A DNA stretch of 64,000 nt from Gammaproteobacteria bacterium (GCA_035943935.1 DASZBR010000002.1:90868-154867), one strand, 5' to 3'. Numbered from the stretch's first letter, positions 25,991-52,245 are shown. The notes: generated by a model from the letters alone, not told the origin. Translations and numbers: made by a program.

Positions 25991-27283
25991 ATGATTGCGT
26001 TTTCACTTAAAGATTTACCTGCGTTTAATGGCATTAGTTTTGACACCCGCACGCTGAAGCCCGGCAATCTCTATTTTGCGATTTTGGGTGAGAGTAAAGA
26101 CGGCCATGACTTCGTTGATCAAGCTCGACGGAACGGGGCGGCGGGTGCGGTGGTTTCAAAGCCGGTCACATCACCACTGCCTACCGTCCAAGTCGAAGAC
26201 ACGACGAAAGCCTTGGGTGAATTTGGCAAAATGATTCGTGATAAATTTTCGATTCCACTTGTTGGGCTTACGGGTAGCAATGGCAAGACGACGACTAAAA
26301 ATATGATCGCGGCTATTTTTACGGAAGCAGGGTTAAATCCGTTGGCCACAGAGGGTAATTACAATAATCAATGGGGTGTGCCGTTGATGCTCTCCCGACT
26401 GACGAAAGAACATAAATCAGCTGTCATCGAAATGGGCATGAACCACTTTGATGAAATCCGTTATCTCACCCATCTCGCTCAGCCGACCATTGCATTAATT
26501 ACGAATGCCGGCCCAAGTCATCTTGAGGGGGTGGGTGGAAAAGTCGAAGGCGTTGCTAAAGCGAAAGGCGAAATTTTTGAAGGTTTATCCAAAGATGGCG
26601 TTGCGGTGATCAATGCTGATGACAAGTTTGCGGATTTCTGGAAAAAATTAGCGGGTTCTCGAAAGATTATTACGTTTGGATTAGCGCATCCTGCCGATGT
26701 TCACGGTGAAATTATTCCCGGCGGATTTAGCCTGAATTATTTAGATCATAAAATCAATATTAAATTAGATTTGTTGGGTAAACATAATATTATGAATGCA
26801 TTGGCGGCATCAGCGGTGGGAATTGCAAACCATATCAAAGTAGACGTTATTAAATCAGCGCTTGAAAAAATGAATCCTGAACACGGCCGTATGGAAGTCA
26901 AGCAAGGGTTGAACGGCGCAAAAATTATTGATGATACGTATAATGCAAACCCATTATCTTTTAGAGCAGCGATAGAAAGTATTTCGCATGACAAAGCCAA
27001 GAAAATATTGGTCTTAGGCGATATGCGTGAATTAGGCGAAACGGCTGTTGAGCTTCATCGTGAGTGTGGAAAATTGGCCAAATCTTCAGGCATTGATCAA
27101 ATATTTGCGACGGGCGAATTAATGAAAGAATTTGTCAAAAGCTTTGGCGAACATGCGCAACACTATAATAATCAAGCAGAATTAATTAAGGCTTTATTAC
27201 CCTGTTTATCGAAAGATGTTTTAGTGTTGGTGAAGGGTTCGCGCTCGATGAAAATGGAGAATGTCGTTAATGCCATTACCTAA
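25991..27283 (+). CDS. murF: UDP-MurNAc-tripeptide--D-Ala-D-Ala ligase MurF, displaced from the dcw cluster
   Basis: GLTGSNGKTTTK P-loop and Mur ligase C-domain. Start set at the ATG at 25991 (MIAFSLKDL) rather than the track's 25754. Confidence 0.8.
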   Translation: MIAFSLKDLPAFNGISFDTRTLKPGNLYFAILGESKDGHDFVDQARRNGAAGAVVSKPVTSPLPTVQVEDTTKALGEFGKMIRDKFSIPLVGLTGSNGKTTTKNMIAAIFTEAGLNPLATEGNYNNQWGVPLMLSRLTKEHKSAVIEMGMNHFDEIRYLTHLAQPTIALITNAGPSHLEGVGGKVEGVAKAKGEIFEGLSKDGVAVINADDKFADFWKKLAGSRKIITFGLAHPADVHGEIIPGGFSLNYLDHKINIKLDLLGKHNIMNALAASAVGIANHIKVDVIKSALEKMNPEHGRMEVKQGLNGAKIIDDTYNANPLSFRAAIESISHDKAKKILVLGDMRELGETAVELHRECGKLAKSSGIDQIFATGELMKEFVKSFGEHAQHYNNQAELIKALLPCLSKDVLVLVKGSRSMKMENVVNAIT

Positions 27284-27653
27284 AAAAGTAGCGCTTGTGG
27301 TTGACGATGATGGTTCAATTCGAGCAGAAATCATTAAAATTTTAAAAAGTTTTAATTATGATATTGTGGAAGCAGTCAATGGCCGAGACGGCGTACAGAA
27401 ATTCCAGCAACAAAAATTTGATTTAGTGACGATGGATTTTTTGATGCCAGAATTAAATGGTGCAGAGGCGGTCAGTGTCATTCGGCAGTTGGATAAAAAT
27501 GTTTTGATTGTAGGCTTAAGTTCGTCGCATACTCGCATGGAAGCGGAGTGTAAGAGATTACATGTAGAGATTCCTGTTTTATCGAAATTTGAGATGCCTG
27601 AAATACTAACGAACTATATAAAGGGGATTGACGATGGAAGAGGCGCAAGCTAA
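27261..27653 (+). CDS. Single-domain response regulator (REC only)
   Basis: CheY-like receiver with DDD...D...K pattern. Overlaps the murF stop. Confidence 0.7.
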   Translation: MSLMPLPKKVALVVDDDGSIRAEIIKILKSFNYDIVEAVNGRDGVQKFQQQKFDLVTMDFLMPELNGAEAVSVIRQLDKNVLIVGLSSSHTRMEAECKRLHVEIPVLSKFEMPEILTNYIKGIDDGRGAS

Positions 27654-28182
27654 AAAGCCACGTGCTTTAGTAGTTGAAGATGTCGATATGTTACGTAGGG
27701 TTTTAGGCAAGCAATTAAAAGAACTGGGGTTTGTTGTTTCCTACGCAGTAACAAGTCAGGGTGCCCTTGCTTTTTATGGTGAAACAAATCCGTTTGATGT
27801 GGTCTTTATGGATCATTTGATGAAAGGGAGTGAGACTAATGGTGCAGAAGCGGCTTTTAATATCAGAAAAAAAGACAGTGCTGTTTGTATCATTTGTTTA
27901 ACAGCCACACCCGTGCAGATGCAAGCTGAGTTACTCGAAAAATTTGCGGTCGAGAAACTAGATGAGATTGAAGGGTTATGTGTGGTTAACAAACCTTATA
28001 AGCTCGATTGTCTTAAACTTATCCTTCAATTGCATGGCTTTATTCTCAAAGATTCTACTGCATCACAGTTGAGAGAATTTGATGTACAGATTCAACAGAG
28101 TATTGTGGCTAATGACAGTGAATCCTCTACGGAAAAAGCTCATGTAAATTCGCCAAGCCCCAGTCGAAAAGATAGTGAATAG
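27628..28182 (+). CDS. Response-regulator receiver protein with Ser-rich C-terminal tail
   Basis: Receiver motifs LVVEDVDM...FMDHLM. No output domain. Confidence 0.65.
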   Translation: MTMEEAQAKKPRALVVEDVDMLRRVLGKQLKELGFVVSYAVTSQGALAFYGETNPFDVVFMDHLMKGSETNGAEAAFNIRKKDSAVCIICLTATPVQMQAELLEKFAVEKLDEIEGLCVVNKPYKLDCLKLILQLHGFILKDSTASQLREFDVQIQQSIVANDSESSTEKAHVNSPSPSRKDSE

Positions 28183-32019: not shown

Positions 32020-33663
32020 ATGTTAGATAATCTTGGCGGTTCAATCGCTTCTGTAAATCAAACCAACACAACTGTAAATGGCATTAATGGCGCTGCTGTT
32101 AATCGCGATACTATGGGAACGGCTGCACATAATATTGGTCGTGGTTTAAGTAAAGCAGTCAGTAAAGGGGCATCAAAAGTAAAGCATCATGTCACCGGAC
32201 CTTCCAAAGCTGTAAGTGATGCACAACGTGGACGCAGCATACATAAAAAAGCATTAGATGAGGGTCTTTCAAATACACACTTAAAAGATCCTGCCGCAAT
32301 TATAAAACTTATTAATCAACACTTAGGGGCGTTGTTAGAATTGCTTGCTGGAAACCCCGAGGATATCGCTGAAGCAAAAAGAAAATGCTATGACACGCTC
32401 GCTCGAAAATGTGGCAGTAATACAAAAAAATTAGAATTAATTATTGCTGAAGTGGCTGAATTACAGCAAGTACATAGATTACATAAAATCAATCAAGAAA
32501 AAGACGCCTTTAAAAAAGCGTATGACAGAGTGAGTGTGCTTCACGAAAAATTGGCTACGGTGAATCCTCACGATGAAACATTGTATGGTGATTGGGATAA
32601 ATTCGATCCTAAAGTATTTAAACGAGTGGCGAAATTACGTGCGGGATTGCAGGATTATTTAGGTGAAATGAAAAAACACGCTGAATTGTCCGGTAATACA
32701 GATAAACAAGAATTAGCAGAAAAATTAGATGCTGCAGCGCAAAATGTTTTAGCGCGATTTGCACATGTTCCTACCGCTGAAGCTTTAGCGAAAGAAGGCA
32801 TTCAAATTCCTGCAAAACCCATGTCGTTTGAAAAAGCGCAGAAAGTTGCAGAACTTTATAAACATATGGCTGAGACGCCTAAAGCAGAAAGAACAACATT
32901 TTTACTGCATTTTGCATCACTCGGTTTTCTTTCTGCGTCACTGGATTTAAGTCAGGCATTAATTCGTGGTGATGGAGGAATGTTTGATGTTCCGCATGAT
33001 GATGCGAAAGCGCGTTTTATTTTGAAACAAGCTGAAAAACAAGCAGTCACCCCACAAGAAAAAATGCGTGTAGCTGAAAGAATTAAATATGCACCGCAAC
33101 CAGGATGGATATCATGGTTGCATAATACGTATAAGGACTATGTGGTTCTTCCCAGACAAAAATTTCTTGGAAGTTTCTTTGGTAGCAGTACTGCATCAAG
33201 AAAAGAACTCGCTGATACTTTTAAAAGATCTATGGCAGATTTTCTGGAAAAAGCAGATTCGAGCGATAGGGATATCGTTTTTGCGATTGAGCAGATGCAA
33301 AAACTTCCCAGTGATGTCGTCAGCATTCCTCATGTCATGGAAGTTTTCCATCATCTTTTGATGAGAATTAATTCGGGTACGATATCACAACAAGTCCAAT
33401 TTGGCCTGAAGCAACTTAATTTCAAGGATTTCTATGAAAACTATAAGCCCAAGATGGATAAGCGATTGGAATTGTTTAAGGGTTTAATTGCATTTGTGGA
33501 ATCGACCGGAACTGGTAGGGTGAATGGGGTTGATGTGCCGCGAATCCTCCAGCAGGGTAAAGATGCTCTTCAACCAGTGGAAGAATTTCATCGAAATGTT
33601 GCGAATGCGGCGGCGAAAGCGGGTTATCAACCACCGCAGAAACGTGCGCGTCAGGAGTTGTAG
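32020..33663 (+). CDS. Hypothetical 547-aa soluble protein, candidate effector
   Basis: Strong RBS AAGGAG. No recognisable domain and no signal peptide. Confidence 0.55.
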   Translation: MLDNLGGSIASVNQTNTTVNGINGAAVNRDTMGTAAHNIGRGLSKAVSKGASKVKHHVTGPSKAVSDAQRGRSIHKKALDEGLSNTHLKDPAAIIKLINQHLGALLELLAGNPEDIAEAKRKCYDTLARKCGSNTKKLELIIAEVAELQQVHRLHKINQEKDAFKKAYDRVSVLHEKLATVNPHDETLYGDWDKFDPKVFKRVAKLRAGLQDYLGEMKKHAELSGNTDKQELAEKLDAAAQNVLARFAHVPTAEALAKEGIQIPAKPMSFEKAQKVAELYKHMAETPKAERTTFLLHFASLGFLSASLDLSQALIRGDGGMFDVPHDDAKARFILKQAEKQAVTPQEKMRVAERIKYAPQPGWISWLHNTYKDYVVLPRQKFLGSFFGSSTASRKELADTFKRSMADFLEKADSSDRDIVFAIEQMQKLPSDVVSIPHVMEVFHHLLMRINSGTISQQVQFGLKQLNFKDFYENYKPKMDKRLELFKGLIAFVESTGTGRVNGVDVPRILQQGKDALQPVEEFHRNVANAAAKAGYQPPQKRARQEL

Positions 33664-34881: not shown

Positions 34882-35766
34882 ATGTCTCATGAAAATGTTG
34901 CATTGGTTGATCGCGATCCACCTGTTGCCTGGTGGAAAAAAGCCCTGATACTTTATCTGATTACGGTTGGTTCTGCTGTTGCAGCGATACAGCGACAACA
35001 AAATTACTCTCACTCTCATCCCGCACTTCCTCCGACATCTGAAGTTGATCTTCATTTTGGGACCATAAAAAATCTGTTGTTGCCCTTTGATCAATATCTT
35101 AGAACAGGCGATTTTGATAAATTAAATATGACGTTATATGGCGAACATAAACCCAAAATAGATCAGATCCTCAATAAAATTATAGCAATAGAAGGAACGT
35201 CAGAGGATATTGAAAAATTTAAACAATTACCGGATTTAACCAAATTACAAAAATTAGGTTTTCAAATTCCACCAACACAAACGGGTAAACGATACCGAGA
35301 TAAGCCTGTGCTTAAAGTGGGTAATGCGATTCAGAAACAATCCTATGAACTTATTGCGCTGAGATTACGTGCCTCACAAGGATGTGTGTATTCGTCGTTG
35401 AAATTAGCTGAAGATAAAGGCGATGATGGATTGAATATTGCGATGGCGAATCAAGCACGAGCGCAAGCGACAAAAAAAGAAAAAGCGTTTGTAGAAGCTG
35501 AACTAAATAAGCTATTTAAAAAAAGTAATACGGAGGCTACTTTTAAGAGTAGTTCTACTTTTAATTATGGTTATCTCATAAGCATGGTTGCTGGACTTTT
35601 TATGGCAATAGCCGCGTATTTTTATTTCAGAATGCCAACGCCAGTCAAAAAACCGCGTATTTCATTGCCCGTGCAAACCAAGCCCGCAAAAGCCCCGCAA
35701 GCTAAAATGGCGAAGGGAGATGTGGTGAGGGAGGAGAGGCGGGAGGTTCGGTACAAACCGGGTTGA
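34882..35766 (+). CDS. Hypothetical membrane-anchored protein (N- and C-terminal TM, basic tail). Its stop abuts the IS left end.
   Basis: ORF with TM segments ALILYLITVGSAVAAI and YLISMVAGLFMAIAAYFYF. The C-terminus may be altered by the IS insertion. Confidence 0.45.
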   Translation: MSHENVALVDRDPPVAWWKKALILYLITVGSAVAAIQRQQNYSHSHPALPPTSEVDLHFGTIKNLLLPFDQYLRTGDFDKLNMTLYGEHKPKIDQILNKIIAIEGTSEDIEKFKQLPDLTKLQKLGFQIPPTQTGKRYRDKPVLKVGNAIQKQSYELIALRLRASQGCVYSSLKLAEDKGDDGLNIAMANQARAQATKKEKAFVEAELNKLFKKSNTEATFKSSSTFNYGYLISMVAGLFMAIAAYFYFRMPTPVKKPRISLPVQTKPAKAPQAKMAKGDVVREERREVRYKPG

Positions 35767-35808
35767 TAGGTAACACTCTAAACCGGGATCATCGGTAACA
35801 CTTTTAGC
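35767..35808. repeat. Left terminal inverted repeat of the IS
   Basis: Reverse-complement match to 36985..37027. Confidence 0.7.
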
Positions 35809-35829
35809 TAGAAAAGCGAGGTGTTACTC

Positions 35830-36981
35830 ATGGGATGGAAGAAAACGAATGCGCGAGAAGAAAAATTAAAATTTATAGGTGATTGGCTGAAGAAAGAATC
35901 TTCATTTTCTGATCTTTGTGAGCGTTACGAGATAAGCCGAAAAACGGGGTATAAATTAACATCCCGCTACGAAGCTTGGGGAGAAGTAGCTTTTGATGAA
36001 TTATCAAGAATAAGACATCTCCATCCGAATGAAACAGCAAGAGAAATAAAAGCAAAATTAATAGAAATTAAATACCGTTACCCAACCTGGGGACCAGGAA
36101 AAATACTGGATTGGTTGAAAATAAACGAACCAAAAACAAAGTGGCCATCAGCGAGTACATCTGGAGAAATTTTAAAGAGACATGGGCTTGTTAAGCCAAG
36201 AAAATATCGTGATCGAGCAGCAAGATTTAGTGAACCCTTTTCAAATTGTGAACATCCAAACGATGTTTGGAGCGCAGATTTTAAAGGGCAGTTTCGATTA
36301 GGGAACGACCGATATTGTTATCCATTAACGGTCACAGATAATTACAGTCGTTATTTATTAGAATGTGAGGGTTTGTTAAGCCCGAATACAGAAAATGTCA
36401 TAAAACGCTTTAAAAAAGTGTTTTATGAGTATGGATTGCCTAAGGCGATAAAAACAGATAATGGGCAACCGTTTGCGGGAATGGGTATTGGTGGATTAAC
36501 GCGATTATCGATTTGGTGGTTAAAACTTGGAATAATGCCAGAACGTATAAAGCCAGGACATCCAGAACAAAACGGGCGCCACGAAAGAATGCATCGCACA
36601 TTAAAAGAAGCAACAATAGCGCCAGCGAAAAGCAGTTTAAAATTACAACAAAGAAGTTTTGATAGATTTAAACAAGAATATAATAACGAGCGTCCTCACG
36701 CAGGAATTGATAGAAAAAGACCATGGGATATTTACAAAAAATCAGCAAGGGTTTTGCCAGATAAATTGCCAGAAATAAATTATGCAGATCATTTTGAAGT
36801 AAGGCGTGTAAGATCGAATGGTGAAATTAAGTTGCAAGGCAAAAAATACTTTGTATCAGAATTGTTGTATGGAGAGCCGATAGGCTTAGAACCGATAGAT
36901 GATGGCAAAGTACTTGTGTACTTTGCCAAACTAAAACTGGGTCTAATAGATATCAGAGAAGATAAAATTATTAGACCCTAA
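35830..36981 (+). CDS. IS481-family DDE transposase (HTH + rve integrase core)
   Basis: WSADFKG...TVTDNYSRY...IKTDNGQPF...NGRHER arrangement parallels the IS481 D-D-E core. ATG 35830 has RBS GAGGTG. Confidence 0.75.
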   Translation: MGWKKTNAREEKLKFIGDWLKKESSFSDLCERYEISRKTGYKLTSRYEAWGEVAFDELSRIRHLHPNETAREIKAKLIEIKYRYPTWGPGKILDWLKINEPKTKWPSASTSGEILKRHGLVKPRKYRDRAARFSEPFSNCEHPNDVWSADFKGQFRLGNDRYCYPLTVTDNYSRYLLECEGLLSPNTENVIKRFKKVFYEYGLPKAIKTDNGQPFAGMGIGGLTRLSIWWLKLGIMPERIKPGHPEQNGRHERMHRTLKEATIAPAKSSLKLQQRSFDRFKQEYNNERPHAGIDRKRPWDIYKKSARVLPDKLPEINYADHFEVRRVRSNGEIKLQGKKYFVSELLYGEPIGLEPIDDGKVLVYFAKLKLGLIDIREDKIIRP

Positions 36982-36984
36982 ACA

Positions 36985-37027
36985 GCTAAAAAGTGTTACC
37001 GATGATCCCGGTTTAATCTGTTACCTA
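36985..37027. repeat. Right terminal inverted repeat of the IS
   Basis: Pairs with 35767..35808. Confidence 0.7.
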
Positions 37028-37077
37028 TGATCCGGGTCGTACAAAGGGGGGTGAGGTTGTAAAAAGAGAGATTGACC

Positions 37078-37941
37078 TCATCCCTTCAACACCTCCCCCC
37101 AACACGACAAAAGCTTCATCAAGGTTATTTCAGTATCTTTCGGAATCATCAGTTTTTGATCAATATCTTGTAAGGAAGCTGTTTCAGGCTCTAACAGCAA
37201 AATCACTTCACACGGCGCATGCGGACCATTCATAAATAAAAGAGACTGATCAGACCAATACACTTTCCAGTGTCTATATCGATGCCCTAAAACAGATTCC
37301 AATAATTGCAGCCAAAAGATTACTGTCGGAATAAATAAATTTTCATTACACGGTAACGGTAATTTTAAGCTCTTAGACTCTCCCTGTATAAGCGCTTTTA
37401 TTTTTTGAGTGACCACATTCAGCCATATTTCCAGGGGAATTTCTGTAGGAATCGCCTCCCAAAATTCGTGCAGCTTAATTTGACTTAACGACTGAATAAT
37501 TTCTTCCAACATACTGCGACGCGAAAGCTTGTGATTCACCCATCGAATATCTTCAATATTTTTATAAATTTCAGGTAACGTTTTATTAGAACCTAATTGC
37601 TTGATTAAACGCTGCATGGCAAAAAAAGTCTCGCGATACACCCACGGAATAAAACTCACAAACTCTCTGGCGAGGGGATGTTCCAATACGCGCAGCATGC
37701 CAAAATCGCGAGTAATCACGCCAATCATCGGTTCTTGTGATTCCGTTTCAGATGCGCTCAAAAAATGGATAGGCGAAAATTGTTTGGGGGAACTTGCGTA
37801 AAATTCTTGCAAGAAAAGTTCGAATTCTGCACCTGCGCCCAGTGAAACGTGATAGCGCAAATCATGACCGAGTGCGGCAATTAAATCATTGTGATATGAC
37901 CAACTGTAGGGGTCACGGTTTTTGCGGATAAAATTCATCAT
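37078..37941 (-). CDS. Hypothetical protein in the tagF position downstream of tssM (possible TagF-like or detached TssM C-terminal segment)
   Basis: Track ORF 37078..38058 starts inside the tssM 3' end. The likely start is the Met pair at 37941/37938 with an AGGAA RBS. Gene order matches fha-tssJ-tssK-tssL-tssM-tagF operons. Only weak FG..DFV-like similarity to TagF. Confidence 0.35.
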   Translation of the reverse strand: MMNFIRKNRDPYSWSYHNDLIAALGHDLRYHVSLGAGAEFELFLQEFYASSPKQFSPIHFLSASETESQEPMIGVITRDFGMLRVLEHPLAREFVSFIPWVYRETFFAMQRLIKQLGSNKTLPEIYKNIEDIRWVNHKLSRRSMLEEIIQSLSQIKLHEFWEAIPTEIPLEIWLNVVTQKIKALIQGESKSLKLPLPCNENLFIPTVIFWLQLLESVLGHRYRHWKVYWSDQSLLFMNGPHAPCEVILLLEPETASLQDIDQKLMIPKDTEITLMKLLSCWGEVLKG

Positions 37942-37996
37942 AAGTCTATTCCTATTATTAAAAACAACCTCACCCGGGCGGGCTAATATCCCTCCC

Positions 37997-40366
37997 CTAC
38001 GAAACCTGTGTAAATAACTCCTCAGGCAACCTAAAATGCTGAAACAACAACACCTCAACTAAATTATTAGGATTATTAATTTTAAACAAAAAATTCACCG
38101 CATAATAATGGCCATTGTCTGCCCGTATATTCCAATGCGCTTGAAACGTGCCATCCTGATGCTTCGATAATTCCGCTTTTTGTAATAATCGAAAAAATCC
38201 CCACGGACTGTCAAACTCAATGCTCCCTTCACTCCCACTCGAGGTAATAATCTCCAAGGCCGATTCGTCATTGTCTTGTGCTAATTTCCACTGAAACTTT
38301 TGCCATTCTTGCGGACCATTTCTATAACGGTAAGACTGTTTATTGCTCACCAAGCGAATTTCTTTTAATCCCACAGTGGGTTCAGGATAAATCTCGAGAC
38401 TTATTTCTGAAACCATGCGGCTTGCTTGTGCAAGGGCTTTAGTATATTCATCTGAAAATTTAATGTTGGGTGATGGATTTTTATGCACAAACTGCCAAAG
38501 CAATCCCTGTGATAAATCAAAAAACTGCTTAAAATCTTGCGGATCGACTTCATCGGGCGAATCCACAAAAGGATATTTTCTTGAGATTTTTTCAGCATAA
38601 AAATCATAGACTTGAGATAGCCACTGCGCATTCATTTCAGCCATAAGTTTAGTCAATTGCGGTAACAACATGACGTTTTGAATAGCTGATTTCAGAGCAG
38701 GATCAGTCTGAAGATTTGCCTCTTTAAATAAAATATTCTGATGGGCTATCGCAATAATTTTACGGACTGTTTTATCCGTCACTGTTGCACCCAGCGCGGG
38801 TCTTAAATTTTGAAGAAAACTAATCCAATTTTTTTTGTAATCAGCTTTATATAAAACCAATAAATTATCTTTGATGGATTCCGGAGCCGAGCGCATCACC
38901 CAATCGCCCTTCGCACTTTCTCGCGCGACTCTATCTATTTCAGGCAAGGCATAAAGACCAAAGCCTTTTGCGGTAAAAAACACAGGGATTTTAATCTCGC
39001 CATCTAATGTCTTGCCGAATAAATCTTTGGCTGAAGTGTATCCCAATTGTTTTTCACCCCAAGAGACCAATCCCGCATAAATATTGGTGAGGTTGGGAGA
39101 TACATATAACTGCTGTCGAGAAAGCTGAACTAAATCGGGGCGCGCAGACCATTGTTTATTACTGTGATTCAAATAAAAAGCCATGAGAGGATTGCCTTGA
39201 TAAAATTGCGGGTACCGATACCGCGGGTGACAAAACAATAAATAGGTTTTTAATTGATTGTAGTACTCTCCTCGCATCGCCTCGGCTTCTTGCGATGTCG
39301 CTAATGCCCATTGTTCTTGCGTTAATGCCAGCTGATTTTCAAGCTGATTAAAGATATTCGGCATGACCTGTTTTTCCACGCCATGAATAAATAAATCTTG
39401 TAGTACGGGAACTAATTCATAGGGCGGTTTTGCCGATAAATAATGGGCGAGATTGACATAGTCATCGGTATTATTTGATGTCTCTATTATCTGACCCAGT
39501 TGTATTCCCTCATGAATTTTGTACGCACTGTGTGCAAACGATGCACTGGCCACCAGAAAAACAATCACAACGATAATACTGGCGGTAATTAAACTCACCG
39601 AAGCAAACCATCGCGTTAGCCATAATTGCTTTCGGCTTTTTTGATTATGGCTAGAAATGCCGCTCAATACTCGCTCAATCATTCCCGGGACAAAATAAGC
39701 CTGTCCCGTGAAATACATTTCTCGAAAATCCGGCGTTTCTTGATAAGGATTAGATTTTGTTAATTCTTTAAGAAAAATACTCAGCCGGTTTGAGTGCTGC
39801 TGAAAGTTTTCAGGGAAATTTAAAATTTTAAATTTATTTGCCGTATCACTTTCAGATTGCGTAAGGCTATAAGCTGCAGAAAAAAGCGACGTGTAATTAT
39901 CCTCTTGGCGCTGAAAAGCCGTTATTTCTGTATGAGCAAAATAATTCTCAAAGCCAGAAATATGATCTATATGCGTAAATAATGTTGTCACGGGAAACAA
40001 ATAACCTAAGTGCTCTGCAATCTCAGCCAAATGCTCTCGAATAATTTTTACCGAATAAGCTTCACTCGCGCTCAACACGAGCAATATTCCATTCAACGGC
40101 ACTCTGGGTCGAACTTTCTTCAAAAATGCCAAGAGCGCCATCCATGCGTCTTTATCGAGCTCAAAATCTATTTCAATAAAAATCGCTTTGTCCGAAAAAA
40201 ACCATCTACTATTTTCAGACTGAACATAATCCCAAGAGCAAGATAAACCTGAATGAGTTAATAAAGCACTTTTTCCAGATTTTTTTGGACCCAACACCAT
40301 AATCCATGGCAATGCATAATACGAAAGATCGGCTTTTTTTAATTGCGCAATCACGTCAGCGCTCAT
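37997..40366 (-). CDS. tssM: TssM/IcmF-like type VI secretion membrane subunit, short form (789 aa), lacking the N-terminal TM hairpin
   Basis: Walker A LGPKKSGKSALL at residues 24-33. Single TM (LWLTRWFASVSLITASIIVVIVFLVAS). Large C-terminal periplasmic region. Adjacent to tssL. Confidence 0.65.
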   Translation of the reverse strand: MSADVIAQLKKADLSYYALPWIMVLGPKKSGKSALLTHSGLSCSWDYVQSENSRWFFSDKAIFIEIDFELDKDAWMALLAFLKKVRPRVPLNGILLVLSASEAYSVKIIREHLAEIAEHLGYLFPVTTLFTHIDHISGFENYFAHTEITAFQRQEDNYTSLFSAAYSLTQSESDTANKFKILNFPENFQQHSNRLSIFLKELTKSNPYQETPDFREMYFTGQAYFVPGMIERVLSGISSHNQKSRKQLWLTRWFASVSLITASIIVVIVFLVASASFAHSAYKIHEGIQLGQIIETSNNTDDYVNLAHYLSAKPPYELVPVLQDLFIHGVEKQVMPNIFNQLENQLALTQEQWALATSQEAEAMRGEYYNQLKTYLLFCHPRYRYPQFYQGNPLMAFYLNHSNKQWSARPDLVQLSRQQLYVSPNLTNIYAGLVSWGEKQLGYTSAKDLFGKTLDGEIKIPVFFTAKGFGLYALPEIDRVARESAKGDWVMRSAPESIKDNLLVLYKADYKKNWISFLQNLRPALGATVTDKTVRKIIAIAHQNILFKEANLQTDPALKSAIQNVMLLPQLTKLMAEMNAQWLSQVYDFYAEKISRKYPFVDSPDEVDPQDFKQFFDLSQGLLWQFVHKNPSPNIKFSDEYTKALAQASRMVSEISLEIYPEPTVGLKEIRLVSNKQSYRYRNGPQEWQKFQWKLAQDNDESALEIITSSGSEGSIEFDSPWGFFRLLQKAELSKHQDGTFQAHWNIRADNGHYYAVNFLFKINNPNNLVEVLLFQHFRLPEELFTQVS

Positions 40367-49285: not shown

Positions 49286-50857
49286 TTAGAAATAAATACC
49301 TAACAATAACGTTACAGTATTAGCCGATCCGCCTGTAGATGCCGTCGGTACAGAACCTCTTCCACCAGAGATATCCGATGTGCTGTAGTTAATATCATGA
49401 CGAAACTCGATTTGCTGTAAAGTATTTCTCCACACAGACGTCAAGAAAGATACATTATAACGATATTGCGGAGCGCCTACGGCTAAAGCCTGCCATGTTT
49501 GTCCATAACTTGCCACAATTGCACTGGGTTTGCTCATAACATGGAAATTGTAGAACCCTTCTAAATTCAACGCCGAAGGTTTCGCACCATAACCGTTATA
49601 CATTAAATCTTGCGGTGCAAATGCAGAGGTTGCCGTCACGTATTCGTCAAACATTCCAAACTGACCAATCCCAAAATTGAAATGCGCCGCCACACCCGGC
49701 ACTTGTCGAACTAAGTTTTCGTTATTGCCTGCACTAAATCCAGCAAATCCCATAGGCAAGAAAGTTTGTTGCATCCCAATAGAATCTGAAACGTCCGTTA
49801 TCGCACCAACGCTGGTATCAATATTCCAAGCGCTACCTTTGCTGTAACCAAACCCCACATTTCCACCAAAATTCTTGATATTGTTATTGTTGTTAGCATT
49901 GGCATCACCATTGAACGCAAAAACTTGAGCATACGGCCCTTGGTTACACGGATGTTGATACGCCAATTCAACTGCACGTGCACGCGTTTGGAAAACCGAG
50001 TCTGTCATAGGCGACGTAATCATCAATGACGAATAATTACCGAACGGAACATAAAATTGACCCAGTGTTAAATAAACGGGTGAGCGATTTAAATTTCCGA
50101 AGGTCAAATATCCTTGATCCAAACGAACACGCGAATTATTGGTTAATGGCATATTAGGTGCTGGATTGTTATCGTATCTTAACGAAACAAAACCTCCGGC
50201 CCATTTATTAATAATCGGGATTAAATCTAATTCAGCGCCGGTGAGATCAATTTTGCTGGTATGAGCAGAATTATACGTTGTCGCATAAATTCCCTGCCCT
50301 TCTACTTTACCACTGAGCATCAATATTGGACCCGTAGGTTCAGCAACATTATTCTTTTTATAGTCGTTAAAAATATCTTGGCGTACTTGCAAGATATGTA
50401 AATTTTCCATGTAGTTGGTATAGGTTACGGCTAAATCAAACGGTGAAAAACTGGTGTGACTTCCCAAATAAGATCCAATAGTCACTGGAGTTCCACTTAA
50501 AAAAGTAGGCAACGGACAAAATTTTGTGGATTGAACTGATGTGGTATAAGCAGGAAGTGTCGTTTGTGTATTTTGCGTACTTTCTGTTTGTACAGCAGGT
50601 TGTGTTGTTTCTTGTGCTGCGACTTTTTCTGTTTTTACTTGTGCTTTTAATTCGCGTTGTTCTGCTTTTAATTCACCGATTTGTGAATCCAACGTTTTCA
50701 TTTGAGATTCAAGTACGTGCGCTTGCACCGTCATTTTTTGAATCATTTTTGCAGTATCTTGTGCTGAAGCAGCACTGTCAGTTGCGGCCAACACTGGCTT
50801 GGTAATTGATAATAAGCTGGCCATTGCCACCAATGAAAACAGTTGTTTTTTCATCAC
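49286..50857 (-). CDS. Legionella-type major outer membrane protein family paralog (523 aa). Signal peptide, N-terminal coiled coil, C-terminal beta-barrel ending in F.
   Basis: Signal peptide MMKKQLFSLVAMASLLS. Coiled coil LKAEQRELKAQ. Conserved FGNY block shared with the neighbouring paralog. Terminal GIYF. Confidence 0.6.
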   Translation of the reverse strand: MMKKQLFSLVAMASLLSITKPVLAATDSAASAQDTAKMIQKMTVQAHVLESQMKTLDSQIGELKAEQRELKAQVKTEKVAAQETTQPAVQTESTQNTQTTLPAYTTSVQSTKFCPLPTFLSGTPVTIGSYLGSHTSFSPFDLAVTYTNYMENLHILQVRQDIFNDYKKNNVAEPTGPILMLSGKVEGQGIYATTYNSAHTSKIDLTGAELDLIPIINKWAGGFVSLRYDNNPAPNMPLTNNSRVRLDQGYLTFGNLNRSPVYLTLGQFYVPFGNYSSLMITSPMTDSVFQTRARAVELAYQHPCNQGPYAQVFAFNGDANANNNNNIKNFGGNVGFGYSKGSAWNIDTSVGAITDVSDSIGMQQTFLPMGFAGFSAGNNENLVRQVPGVAAHFNFGIGQFGMFDEYVTATSAFAPQDLMYNGYGAKPSALNLEGFYNFHVMSKPSAIVASYGQTWQALAVGAPQYRYNVSFLTSVWRNTLQQIEFRHDINYSTSDISGGRGSVPTASTGGSANTVTLLLGIYF

Positions 50858-50943: not shown

Positions 50944-52245
50944 TTAAGCGAACATCACGCCTAAGTGTAATACACCCGTCGTTTTGTTTCTACCCGTGCC
51001 ACCATCATCACGGTCGTAATCATCGTCATTGAACACATCAAGACCGACAACCACGTTCCTGGAGACATTCACATCGAACGTTCCTTCAATACGTTGTCGC
51101 GGTATACCAACTCCGATGAGACCAATATTACGTGCATCCCATGAATACTGGTAGTCTGCGCCAACACGAGACTTGTGATCCATAATGTTAAACGTTAAAC
51201 CAGCACCAACGTCCAAAGCTCCTGGAGTTGCGCCATCATTACCAGGAGGTGTTGAGGGAGCATCAGCGTTAGAAAAATCATTGAGGGCTGACACAACATG
51301 TACAAAGCCATCAAACATTCCAATGCTACCAGTTGCATCTACGCTCACGCCATTAACCGGATGAGAGTACCCAGTAATAGCAAGAGGAATCCCGTTAGCT
51401 GCAAATCCGCCGCCAATGTAATCCGTATCAGCCATGTTATTTAAATAACTTGCTTGAAGATTAAGTTTCGCATCTTGACCTTGCATCGACCAACCTAAGT
51501 TACCACCAAAGTCGTTTATATTGATAACACCGTTGCCTGTGTCACGTCTAGAAGTCAATCCACGGAAAGTATACACAGAACCGTAGAAACCATTCGATAC
51601 GAATCCTAACGTTGCAGCTGTTTCATTCGTTTCTGTGAGTAATTGTGTAAACGACGGAACCGTCGCAAAACGATCGTAGTTACCGAAATTTACATATTGT
51701 TTACCGACTCTGAGGAAAAATGGATTTTCACAGAAATTAGCAAACGTTACATAAGCTTCATCAATAAAGTCACTTGCTTGAGGCTTAATGATAAGCGACT
51801 GGTCAGCAGGAATACTTCTGAAGTTATTTAACGAAGTGTTATTGTTTGTTTGATAATTCAAGCCAATATGCGCTTTTGTCCAATTGTTAACTTGGGCATC
51901 GACGAACAAATCAGCATTGCTTAACGTCAAATCGGAATCACTACGATTACTGTAGTTAAGATCGCCATCAGACAAAACAGCATCAACATTAATCAAACCG
52001 CTGACGCTGATTGAATCATACCAATTTGGGCAAGCAGCTATACGTTGTTGCAGAGCTGTGCCACCCATGGTCTGAGTCATACCGTTGTTTTGGTTGATCA
52101 CTTGTTCCATTGAATTAATCTGGGACTGCATACCATTCAGTTGATTTTGAACATTGACATTTGAATTTGTGGCTGCGAATGCAGAACCACTGATTCCTAA
52201 TAAAATAATTGAAGCTAAAACTGGTTTCAATCTCATGCAACTCAC
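50944..52245 (-). CDS. Legionella-type major outer membrane protein family paralog (433 aa)
   Basis: Signal peptide. Q/N-rich coiled coil. KQYVNFGNYDRF block homologous to the 49286 paralog. Terminal VMFA. Confidence 0.6.
   Translation of the reverse strand: MSCMRLKPVLASIILLGISGSAFAATNSNVNVQNQLNGMQSQINSMEQVINQNNGMTQTMGGTALQQRIAACPNWYDSISVSGLINVDAVLSDGDLNYSNRSDSDLTLSNADLFVDAQVNNWTKAHIGLNYQTNNNTSLNNFRSIPADQSLIIKPQASDFIDEAYVTFANFCENPFFLRVGKQYVNFGNYDRFATVPSFTQLLTETNETAATLGFVSNGFYGSVYTFRGLTSRRDTGNGVININDFGGNLGWSMQGQDAKLNLQASYLNNMADTDYIGGGFAANGIPLAITGYSHPVNGVSVDATGSIGMFDGFVHVVSALNDFSNADAPSTPPGNDGATPGALDVGAGLTFNIMDHKSRVGADYQYSWDARNIGLIGVGIPRQRIEGTFDVNVSRNVVVGLDVFNDDDYDRDDGGTGRNKTTGVLHLGVMFA

What the first reader, a model, noticed from the sequence alone, without database searches (positions are those of the whole stretch)
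37078..40366. TssM is atypical: no N-terminal TM hairpin, short periplasmic domain, and a separate downstream ORF overlapping its 3' end
Canonical TssM is 1100-1200 aa, with two TM helices before the cytoplasmic NTPase domain. Here the Walker A (GPKKSGKS) sits at residues 24-33 and there is only one TM, at about 250-280. The protein ends at 789 aa. The next ORF (track 37078..38058) begins inside the tssM 3' end in another frame, and its plausible real start (37941) is 56 nt after the tssM stop. That ORF is either a TagF-like accessory gene or the detached C-terminal (TssJ-binding) part of TssM created by a frameshift, which would mark pseudogenisation. Its first 40 codons (MRCCCFSILGCLRSYL...) look non-coding, which favours a separate gene or a decayed junction.
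Basis: partly seen in the sequence, partly recalled or inferred. Interest (0 to 1): 0.6.

Follow-up and report, generated by a model that had tools for sequence, protein, structure and literature searches.

The report
Shrunken TssM with a loop-less TagF
A few uncultured Coxiella-like bacteria keep a five-gene remnant of a type VI secretion system in which the large membrane protein TssM has lost about a third of its length and the neighbouring regulator TagF has lost the two loops reported as conserved in all known TagFs; both genes are intact and conserved, not broken.

Summary
Window 37078-42726 (minus strand) is one operon: tssJ-tssK-tssL-tssM-tagF'.

- **TssM (789 aa).** It is the maximal ORF. 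It has a Walker A at residues 26-33, one TM at about 251-279 and an intact C-terminal TssJ-binding domain. It lacks the TM1-TM2 hairpin, the DTAGR motif and about 230 periplasmic residues.
- **Conservation.** Eight lineages share this form (773-840 aa, 52-54% identity). NG86 dN/dS is about 0.2.
- **No frameshift.** Two independent assemblies match the tssM/next-gene junction base for base.
- **Downstream gene.** It starts at ATG 37941 and encodes 287 aa. It is a separate, conserved, divergent long-form TagF (hhalign 99.95% to TagF_N-positive proteins). Both the alpha and beta loops, which are essential in three species studied, have been excised.
- **Origin.** Syntenic relatives form a reduction series at this site: tssJKLM(1088 aa)-tagF-tssA-vgrG, then this five-gene form, then tagF alone.

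Unresolved: whether sheath, tube and baseplate genes exist elsewhere in these genomes. The operon is either a streamlined working module or a tail-less relic. I rate it a new variant of a known kind, of moderate interest.

The parts
42304..42726 (-). tssJ, 140-aa outer-membrane lipoprotein (lipobox LSSC, Cys18)
   Evidence: Pfam T6SS-SciN 100.1 bits; TIGR03352 93.6 bits, above the 31.6 cut-off. N-terminal sequence read.
41015..42307 (-). tssK, 430-aa connector between baseplate and membrane complex, full length
   Evidence: Pfam T6SS_VasE 310.1 bits covering profile 1-429; TIGR03353 300.8 bits, above the 100 cut-off.
40356..41015 (-). tssL/dotU, 219 aa, one C-terminal TM; overlaps the tssM start by 11 nt
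   Evidence: Pfam DotU 168.1 bits; TIGR03349 153.7 bits, above the 89.95 cut-off. TM at 176-194.
37997..40366 (-). Miniaturised tssM, 789 aa: cytoplasmic P-loop domain, single TM, shortened periplasmic domain
   Evidence: Pfam IcmF-related_N, IcmF-related and IcmF_C above cut-off; IcmF_helical 23.9 bits against a 24.1 cut-off. TIGR03348 scores 228.9 bits, below the 388.15 cut-off, and the match starts at profile position 93. Eight clade members of 773-840 aa. Deletions mapped.
40268..40291 (-). Walker A GPKKSGKS (TssM residues 26-33)
   Evidence: G....GK[ST] is kept in all 8 clade members. D[TS]AG is absent in all 8 but present in 108 of 120 homologues.
39530..39616 (-). The only TM segment of TssM (residues 251-279), equivalent to canonical TM3
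   Evidence: Kyte-Doolittle peak 2.77 at 254-272. It aligns with TM3 of full-length TssMs.
38012..38404 (-). TssM C-terminal beta domain (residues 655-785), the TssJ-binding tip in EAEC TssM
   Evidence: phmmer to 6ixh/6hs7/4y7o, query 655-785 against EAEC 977-1106, E 6.7e-11. Pfam IcmF_C 65.7 bits.
37942..38058 (-). Spurious 5' extension of the downstream ORF (TTG 38058 to ATG 37941), not coding in this frame
   Evidence: No homologue carries it; all start at the M aligned with ATG 37941.
37078..37941 (-). tagF' : 287-aa divergent two-domain TagF lacking the alpha (GK..DF) and beta (S.D..GR.YP) loops
   Evidence: 8 homologues at 55-67% identity. A profile search finds 35 remote homologues, 33 of them TagF_N/TIGR03373. 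hhalign 99.95%. Deletions shown. AF2 model pLDDT 90.2.
42987..43016 (-). Candidate sigma-70-like promoter upstream of tssJ (TTGACG-18-TATAGT)
   Evidence: Consensus scan, 10 of 12 matches. The scan found fewer sites than shuffled sequence, so this is weak evidence.
35757..37037 (+). IS element (rve-type transposase 35821-36981) inserted 40 nt downstream of the tagF' stop, replacing the SpoU-methylase neighbour seen in relatives
   Evidence: 49-nt terminal inverted repeats, 88% complementary. Pfam rve/rve_3/HTH. Two Logan contigs break at 37014, inside the right repeat. Relatives have SpoU_methylase after tagF.

Best explanation
The region is the distal half of a five-gene operon, tssJ-tssK-tssL-tssM-tagF', inherited vertically at a fixed chromosomal site (next to marC) in a small clade of uncultured Coxiellaceae-like gammaproteobacteria.

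Shown:
- The 789-aa protein is an intact, lineage-specific, miniaturised TssM.
- An in-frame loss removed residues about 4-108 of the ancestral protein (TM1, TM2 and the linker) while keeping the start codon that overlaps tssL.
- Further deletions removed the switch-I-like loop, the DTAGR motif, two cytoplasmic inserts and about 230 periplasmic residues.
- The P-loop, the TM3 equivalent and the TssJ-binding C-terminal domain remain.
- The next gene is a separate, conserved, long-form (two-domain) TagF from which the alpha and beta loops have been cut out.
- All five genes evolve 3-6 times faster at the protein level than their neighbours but remain under purifying selection.

Inferred:
- Topology is still N-in/C-out, so TssJ, TssL and mini-TssM can still build an envelope-spanning complex, slimmer and probably shorter, onto which TssK docks.
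- The NTPase domain probably still binds nucleotide but has lost the canonical hydrolysis/switch apparatus.
- TagF' cannot work through the loop-dependent Fha or Hcp contacts described for other TagFs. It most likely acts through its retained core and C-terminal domain on the membrane complex.
- The module is a product of reductive evolution of a T6SS that was already split over several loci. It most likely still serves a tail and baseplate encoded elsewhere.
For: - **Identity of the genes.**
- **Clade of short TssMs.** All start alike at MSAE/MTAE, are 773-840 aa and 52-54% identical. Deletion map against full-length TssMs.
- **Rarity of the form.** Two TM segments before the Walker A in 105 of 120 homologues.
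- **C-terminal domain intact.**
- **Separate downstream gene.** Its start is conserved and there are 8 homologues.
- **TagF homology.**. The TagF_N-positive profile hits solved TagFs: 9T0N at E 7e-17, plus 6IZ8 and 2QNU.
- **Loops deleted.**
- **Loops matter elsewhere.** They are essential in P. aeruginosa and A. tumefaciens (PMC5995506) and in A. baylyi, where they are called universally conserved across 655 TagFs (bioRxiv 10.64898/2025.12.08.692957).
- **Same operon and synteny** in L001/L004, L003 and L005.
- **Syntenic full-length relatives.** L006 has tssJKLM(1088 aa)-tagF-tssA-vgrG. The P0019 locus has tssJKLM(1115 aa)-tagF-tssA. Neither has tail genes nearby, so the system was already split.
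- **Curated cut-offs.** Those relatives pass TIGR03348 (730 and 723 bits), while the short clade fails (206-229 bits).
- **Selection.** NG86 dN/dS is 0.08-0.23 for the five genes and 0.04-0.12 for neighbours. dS is near saturation, so the true ratio is no higher.
- **No assembly error.** Two independent assemblies are identical across the junction.
Against: - No sheath, tube, spike, baseplate-wedge, ClpV or TssA gene lies in the 64-kb window or within 10 kb of the operon in three relatives. I could not search the rest of these genomes.
- tssA and vgrG, present at this site in the full-length relatives, are gone here.
- The T6SS proteins are 52-75% identical between genomes whose flanking genes are 86-92% identical. 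That fits relaxed constraint.
- One syntenic relative (L015) has lost tssJKLM altogether and keeps only the TagF-like gene. The lineage therefore tolerates loss of the membrane complex.
- A search with the relative's TssA found no copy on any contig of the short clade.
- Foldseek did not retrieve TagF structures for the AF2 model. A direct profile-to-9T0N comparison is not significant. The TagF link is therefore transitive.
Confidence: 0.6

Rival explanations
1. Tail-less relic or exaptation. The clade has lost the contractile tail. The TssJ-TssL-mini-TssM complex, TssK and the loop-less TagF survive for another envelope role, or as a slowly decaying remnant. A possible model is the way IcmF/DotU stabilise the Dot/Icm type IVB system in Legionella.
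For: - tssA and vgrG are lost from the locus relative to syntenic relatives.
- The NTPase DTAGR motif and both TagF functional loops are lost.
- Protein evolution is 3-6 times faster than in neighbours.
- L015 keeps only the TagF-like gene.
- No TssA was found on clade contigs.
- A hairpin-less IcmF-like protein with a degenerate Walker B occurs with DotU alone in another organism, L011.
- Partial, scattered T6SS sets are reported in another Legionellales symbiont (bioRxiv 10.64898/2026.04.11.717937).
Against: - dN/dS of 0.08-0.23 and intact ORFs in at least 8 lineages argue against simple decay.
- TssK is full length and passes its equivalog cut-off. Its known role is to join the membrane complex to TssFG.
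- In the full-length relatives the tail genes are also not at this locus, so their absence here says little.
- The protein scores 67.9 bits against the type IVB IcmF model, whose cut-off is 1000.
Confidence: 0.3
2. Frameshifted or pseudogenised tssM, with the downstream ORF being its detached C-terminal part.
For: Only the ORF overlap of the maximal TTG-started ORF with the tssM 3' end, and the short length of TssM.
Against: - TssM has its own complete IcmF_C domain, ending in the conserved LPE..F tail.
- The downstream protein has no similarity to TssM and is homologous to TagF.
- The same layout occurs in four diverged genomes.
- Two independent assemblies are identical at the junction.
- Purifying selection acts on both genes.
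Confidence: 0.02
3. Type IVB (Dot/Icm) IcmF-IcmH pair misread as T6SS.
For: The lineage is Coxiellaceae-like. Type IVB systems in that order use IcmF/DotU homologues (own knowledge).
Against: - NF038226 IcmF_IVB scores 67.9 bits against a cut-off of 1000, while TIGR03348 scores 228.9.
- The operon includes tssJ and tssK, which pass their T6SS equivalog cut-offs.
- Syntenic relatives add tagF, tssA and vgrG.
Confidence: 0.03

Closest known systems
Canonical T6SS(i) TssM, e.g. EAEC Sci-1 TssM (PDB 6HS7, 6IXH, 4Y7O; NCBIfam TIGR03348)
   Same: Same domain order from the P-loop onward: IcmF-related_N, TM, IcmF-related, helical region, IcmF_C. Encoded after tssJ-tssK-tssL. The C-terminal domain aligns to EAEC residues 977-1106.
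   Different: No TM1-TM2 hairpin. No DTAGR motif and no switch-I-like loop. TKxD has become THxD. About 230 fewer periplasmic residues, including about 130 between EAEC 704 and 868. It scores below the TIGR03348 cut-off.
Syntenic full-length relatives (L006 with P0018, 1088 aa; P0019, 1115 aa)
   Same: Same chromosomal site (ldh, ABC transporter, marC). Same tssJ-K-L-M-tagF order, with tssL/tssM start overlap.
   Different: They keep the hairpin, DTAGR, TagF loops (TIGR03373 passes), tssA and, in L006, vgrG.
Long two-domain TagF, Acinetobacter baylyi TagF (PDB 9T0N); short TagF of P. aeruginosa (2QNU)
   Same: Full-length profile homology to TagF_N-positive proteins of about 320-340 aa, which in turn match 9T0N over residues 13-315. 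Position directly after tssM. No fha or TPP genes nearby, as in the clade III TagFs of Engelin et al..
   Different: The alpha loop is shortened by 6 residues and has lost GK. The beta loop is shortened by 8-9 residues and has lost S.D..GR.YP. Pfam and NCBIfam TagF models do not hit. No tagZ-like gene is in the operon.
Legionella/Coxiella type IVB IcmF-IcmH(DotU)
   Same: Homologous membrane proteins retained as a small module away from any contractile tail. Occurs in the same bacterial order.
   Different: The type IVB model scores far below its cut-off. tssJ, tssK and tagF are T6SS-specific.
Acinetobacter non-canonical membrane complex (no TssJ; TsmK, TagX, TslA), PMC10564176
   Same: Another lineage-specific remodelling of the T6SS membrane complex.
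   Different: There a component is replaced and TssM stays full length (138.7 kDa). Here all components stay and TssM itself is cut down.

Membership tests
TssM (T6SS membrane subunit, TIGR03348) | Score at or above the curated equivalog cut-off (388.15 bits) | tested here: not met
   228.9 bits. Clade members score 206-210 bits, while syntenic full-length relatives score 723-730 bits.
TssM (T6SS membrane subunit, TIGR03348) | N-terminal TM1-TM2 hairpin before the cytoplasmic domain | tested here: not met
   No hydrophobic segment before the Walker A. The maximal ORF starts 25 residues upstream of the P-loop.
TssM (T6SS membrane subunit, TIGR03348) | P-loop NTPase domain with Walker A | tested here: met
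   GPKKSGKS at 26-33. The motif is kept in 8 of 8 clade members.
TssM (T6SS membrane subunit, TIGR03348) | Walker B / DxxG (DTAGR) motif | tested here: not met
   D[TS]AG is absent in 8 of 8 clade members and present in 108 of 120 homologues. The aligned position is FIE(I/V)D.
TssM (T6SS membrane subunit, TIGR03348) | TM3 followed by a periplasmic IcmF-related domain, a helical domain and IcmF_C | tested here: met
   Three Pfam domains are above cut-off and IcmF_helical is 0.2 bits below. The region is shortened by about 230 aa.
TssM (T6SS membrane subunit, TIGR03348) | Binds TssJ through the C-terminal domain and TssL/TssK through the cytoplasmic domain | not testable with these tools
   There is only sequence similarity of residues 655-785 to the EAEC TssJ-binding domain, plus co-operonic tssJ, tssK and tssL.
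TagF (Pfam PF09867 TagF_N, TIGR03373) | Direct match to the family HMM | tested here: not met
   No Pfam or NCBIfam hit at E of 0.1 or below. The precomputed Pfam field is empty for all 9 clade members.
TagF (Pfam PF09867 TagF_N, TIGR03373) | Homology to family members by profile methods | tested here: met
   33 of 35 remote hits of the clade profile are TagF_N/TIGR03373. hhalign 99.95%, E 5e-38, 282 columns.
TagF (Pfam PF09867 TagF_N, TIGR03373) | Conserved alpha loop (GK..(D/E)F) and beta loop (S.D..GR.YP), needed for function in P. aeruginosa, A. tumefaciens and A. baylyi | tested here: not met
   Both loops fall in alignment gaps of 6 and 8-9 residues in all 9 clade members. Requirement documented in PMC5995506 and bioRxiv 10.64898/2025.12.08.692957.
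TagF (Pfam PF09867 TagF_N, TIGR03373) | TagF fold (2QNU, 6IZ8, 9T0N) | tested here: inconclusive
TagF (Pfam PF09867 TagF_N, TIGR03373) | Encoded in a T6SS cluster, typically right after tssM | tested here: met
   It lies 55 nt after the tssM stop. Pfam-positive TagFs hold the same position in L006, the P0019 locus, L008 and L018.
Type IVB IcmF (NF038226) | Score at or above the curated cut-off (1000 bits) | tested here: not met
   67.9 bits.
Complete T6SS(i) (13 core genes) | Presence of tssA, tssB, tssC, hcp, tssE, tssF, tssG, clpV and vgrG in the genome | not testable with these tools
   None is in the 64-kb window or in the 10-kb flanks in relatives.

The most novel reading that the evidence does not exclude
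In this intracellular-type lineage the T6SS membrane complex (TssJ, TssL, a single-TM mini-TssM), its TssK connector and a loop-less TagF persist as a tail-less envelope machine. This would be an exaptation in progress, parallel to the ancient recruitment of IcmF/DotU by type IVB systems. TagF' would have become the most durable part, since it alone survives in L015.
Probability: 0.2. Interest if true: 0.7.

Novelty: new variant of a known kind. Interest (0 to 1): 0.45.

Why it matters
- **A natural minimal TssM.** It shows which parts of TssM can be lost while the gene stays under selection: the TM1-TM2 hairpin, the DTAGR switch and about 130 residues of the periplasmic helical region. That is a ready-made guide for minimal membrane-complex constructs, and for asking what the hairpin and the NTPase cycle are for.
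[quoted passage not shown] It points to a loop-independent function of the TagF core and C-terminal domain.
- **A reduction series at one site.** The full cluster, the 7-gene form, the 5-gene form and the 1-gene form at one syntenic site give a rare stepwise view of how a T6SS is dismantled or repurposed in host-associated Legionellales/Coxiellales.

Tried and rejected
- **Frameshift or detached C-terminus.** Rejected.
- **Hidden N-terminal extension of TssM.** Rejected: 789 aa is the maximal ORF, and all clade members start alike.
- **Direct TagF assignment by Pfam, NCBIfam or PDB sequence search.** No hits. A direct profile comparison with the 9T0N sequence was not significant.
- **First AF2 run with only 9 sequences.** Unusable, pLDDT 55. 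The second run with 44 sequences was good.
- **Foldseek against the PDB.** It did not find TagF entries, only weak longin/DENN-like hits. From memory, TagF has been compared with longin/DENN modules. I could not confirm this in the held literature, so I treat it as a lead only.
- **Looking for the rest of the T6SS.**
  - A single-protein scan of genome contigs found nothing.
  - The alignment scan found only 2 loci.
  - The metagenome scan found 1 locus.
  - A search with the relative's TssA found lone tssA genes next to brkB in other MAGs (L009, L010, L017) and full clusters (L008, L018). None could be tied to the short clade.
- **Exact look-up of the window's TssM.** Not on record.
- **Type IVB IcmF reading.** Rejected on score and gene content.
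- **YN00 dN/dS.** It failed numerically for the T6SS genes because of saturation. NG86 values are reported instead.
Full report
**What is at the coordinates.** The minus strand of window 37078-42726 carries five tightly packed ORFs.

| Gene | Coordinates | Length | Curated model result |
|---|---|---|---|
| tssJ | 42304-42726 | 140 aa | Passes TIGR03352 |
| tssK | 41015-42307 | 430 aa | Passes TIGR03353 |
| tssL/dotU | 40356-41015 | 219 aa | Passes TIGR03349 |
| tssM-like | 37997-40366 | 789 aa | Fails TIGR03348 |
| downstream ORF | 37078-38058 (maximal) | 326 aa | No hit |

- The 789-aa protein hits Pfam IcmF-related_N, IcmF-related and IcmF_C above threshold. IcmF_helical falls 0.2 bits below.
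- It reaches only 228.9 bits on TIGR03348 (cut-off 388.15), and the match begins at profile position 93.
- It scores 67.9 bits on the type IVB IcmF model (cut-off 1000).
- The downstream ORF hits nothing.
- No other T6SS gene lies anywhere in the 64-kb window. The flanks are housekeeping genes, an Abi_2 gene and an IS element.

**Checking the observation.**
- The 789-aa ORF is the maximal ORF.
- The Walker A GPKKSGKS is at residues 26-33.
- A hydropathy scan finds a single TM, peak 254-272 within residues 251-279, and nothing before the P-loop.
- Among 120 TssM homologues, 105 have two TM segments before the Walker A. Besides the eight members of this clade, only one other protein (P0087) appears to lack them; two more look like truncated gene calls.
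- MAFFT against full-length TssMs maps the losses:
  - about 105 N-terminal residues (TM1, TM2 and linker), with the first three residues retained;
  - a 9-residue switch-I-like loop;
  - the DTAGR motif (aligned residues FIE(I/V)D);
  - TKxD changed to THxD;
  - two cytoplasmic inserts of about 23 and about 33 residues;
  - several periplasmic deletions.
- Against the solved EAEC TssM, query 536-571 corresponds to EAEC 704-868. Query 655-785 aligns to the TssJ-binding domain at 977-1106 (E 6.7e-11).
- The observation therefore stands. The C-terminal domain, however, is present in TssM itself.

**A clade, not an accident.**
- Eight protein clusters of 773-840 aa share this architecture at 52-54% identity and 99-100% coverage. 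All start MSAE/MTAE. The next relatives, at 32% identity, are full length: 1088 and 1115 aa.
- The downstream protein has eight homologues of 286-299 aa at 55-67% identity. All begin at the methionine that matches ATG 37941. The TTG-started extension that overlaps tssM is therefore an ORF-calling artefact. The true intergenic gap is 55 nt, with an AGGA upstream of the ATG.
- Two Logan assemblies from separate runs (SRR12377062 and SRR12377063) are identical to the window over 37014-39941 and 37014-38887, including the junction. This excludes an assembly frameshift.
- The same five-gene operon sits in the same neighbourhood (inositol phosphatase, ldh, ABC transporter, marC on one side, SpoU methylase on the other) in L001/L004, L003 (titled uncultured Coxiellaceae bacterium) and L005.

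**What the downstream gene is.**
- An exhaustive profile search with the nine clade sequences found 44 proteins at E of 1e-3 or below.
- Of the 35 remote ones I aligned, 33 are Pfam TagF_N and TIGR03373 TagF.
- Profile-profile comparison of the clade with the TagF_N-positive set gives 99.95% probability, E 5e-38, over 282 columns.
- That set matches the solved A. baylyi TagF (9T0N) over residues 13-315 at E 7e-17, and also 6IZ8 and 2QNU.
- With the 44-sequence alignment AlphaFold gives a confident two-domain model (pLDDT 90.2, pTM 0.88).
- Foldseek against the PDB returned only weak longin/DENN-type hits and no TagF entry. Comparing the clade profile with the 9T0N sequence alone is not significant. 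The more sensitive fold libraries were unavailable.
- I conclude the gene is a divergent long-form TagF. The link to solved TagFs is transitive.

**The TagF is stripped of its known functional loops.**
- In the alignments the clade lacks 6 residues in the alpha loop (GKLPxxxEF becomes G-H-D-L or similar, with no conserved GK).
- It also lacks 8-9 residues in the beta loop, so S.D.SGR.YP is gone.
- Lin et al. 2018 showed that G8/K9 and S79/D81/R85 of P. aeruginosa TagF, and the equivalent A. tumefaciens residues, are needed for Fha binding and for repression (PMC5995506).
- Engelin et al. 2025 report these loops as conserved in all 655 TagFs analysed and essential in A. baylyi, which has no Fha. 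There TagF binds Hcp and blocks premature sheath assembly, and TagZ recruits it through a groove between the two domains.
- The window's protein therefore cannot use the loop-dependent mechanism.

**Evolutionary context.**

| Locus | Content at the marC site |
|---|---|
| L008, L018 (more distant, different site) | Contiguous cluster: (fha in L008)-tssJKLM-tagF-tssA-tssBC-hcp-tssEFG |
| L006 | tssJKLM(1088 aa)-tagF(321 aa)-tssA-vgrG plus putative effector genes |
| P0019 locus | tssJKLM(1115 aa)-tagF-tssA |
| Short clade (this window) | tssJKLM(773-840 aa)-tagF' |
| L015 | A 311-aa TagF-like gene alone, 544 bp from marC, followed by SpoU |

- L006's TagF passes the TIGR03373 cut-off.
- In L006 and the P0019 locus no sheath or baseplate genes lie within 10 kb. 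The system was therefore already split across loci in this lineage.
- In L015 no trace of tssJKLM remains. Its beta loop is also degraded, and no TagF model hits it.
- The site thus shows a reduction series.

**Selection.**
- Between the window and L001, L003 and L005 the flanking proteins are 86-92% identical. The T6SS proteins are far less so: TssJ 70-75%, TssK 54-66%, TssL 52-59%, TssM 53%, TagF' 55-64%.
- NG86 dN/dS is 0.12-0.13 (TssJ), 0.08-0.15 (TssK), 0.20-0.22 (TssL), 0.19-0.23 (TssM) and 0.15-0.20 (TagF'). Neighbours give 0.04-0.12.
- dS is 1.2-4.5, near saturation, so the true ratios are no higher.
- The genes evolve fast but are not neutral. ORFs of up to 2.4 kb that stay intact in eight lineages point the same way (inference).

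**How it most likely works.**
- Shown: the topology logic is preserved. The cytoplasmic P-loop domain is at the N-terminus, one TM follows, and then comes a periplasmic domain ending in the TssJ-binding module. tssJ (with a lipobox), tssL and tssK are canonical.
- Inferred: TssJ, TssL and mini-TssM still build an envelope-spanning complex with shorter or slimmer periplasmic pillars, and TssK docks on it.
- Inferred: the P-loop probably still binds nucleotide, but the canonical switch and hydrolysis motifs are gone.
- Inferred: TagF' acts through its conserved core and C-terminal domain (for example the invariant LP.N...FW.QLL segment) rather than through the loops. Its likely target is the membrane complex.
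- I put 0.6 on the operon still serving a tail encoded elsewhere, and 0.3 on it being a tail-less relic or an exapted module. The data I could reach do not separate these two readings.

**Comparison with known systems and novelty.**
- The operon works like, and descends from, a canonical T6SS(i) membrane-complex module.
- As a family member, TssM fails three defining tests: the curated cut-off, the hairpin and the DxxG motif.
- TagF' fails two: the family HMM and the two loops.
- I found no curated model or paper describing single-TM short TssMs or loop-less TagFs.
- This is a new variant of a known kind, found in rare uncultured Coxiellaceae-like bacteria. I score interest at 0.45. A specialist would find it surprising, but there is no experimental handle and the key question of tail genes stays open.

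Noticed in passing
window 35757-37037: A complete IS element: 49-nt terminal inverted repeats (88% complementary) around an rve-type transposase at 35821-36981. It sits 40 nt after the tagF' stop. Two independent assemblies break inside its right repeat at 37014, so it is probably multi-copy. It replaces the SpoU-methylase neighbour seen in relatives.
   Followed up: partly
L015 7965-9444 (JGI Ga0063356_100002775): A syntenic relative has lost tssJKLM entirely. It keeps only a 311-aa TagF-like gene between marC and the SpoU methylase. This suggests the TagF-like protein can outlive the membrane complex.
   Followed up: partly
L011 474-4235 (Logan SRR26844648): Another hairpin-less IcmF/TssM-like protein (P0087, 1010 aa; Walker A GDLGVGKS; LKLAGF in place of LDTAGR). 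It is encoded with dotU alone, with no tssJ or tssK. It passes the TIGR03348 cut-off (434.5 bits).
   Followed up: partly
L009 3546-5006, L010 615-2075, L017 670-2109: Lone tssA genes (38% identical to the L006 TssA) sit next to brkB, with no other T6SS gene on the contig, in three gammaproteobacterial MAG or metagenome contigs. They may be scattered T6SS genes of related lineages. I could not link them to the short clade.
   Followed up: no
window 49286-50857 and 50944-52245 (-): Two tandem LbtU-family siderophore porins (NCBIfam NF033652, 283 and 243 bits), a family named after the Legionella legiobactin receptor. The first is only 25-29% identical to its positional counterpart in relatives whose neighbouring genes are about 90% identical.
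   Followed up: partly
window 17823-18794 (+): A 323-aa protein with a plant F-box/LRR-type repeat hit (PF24758, E 3.4e-10). This is a eukaryote-like protein of the kind seen among effectors of intracellular bacteria.
   Followed up: no
window 27261-27653 and 27628-28182 (+): Two overlapping ORFs, each with a response-regulator receiver domain. They are either two CheY-like genes or one frameshifted gene.
   Followed up: no
window 12107-14227 (+), 32020-33663 (+): Large ORFs (706 and 547 aa) with no Pfam or NCBIfam match. The second lies between sua5 and an Abi_2 gene, close to the IS element.
   Followed up: no
L018 680-16518 (Logan SRR16531663): An organism whose class II fructose-bisphosphate aldolase is 82% identical to the window's (window 10382-11446) carries a complete contiguous T6SS cluster directly after that gene. 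Its T6SS proteins are only 22-33% identical to the window's.
   Followed up: partly
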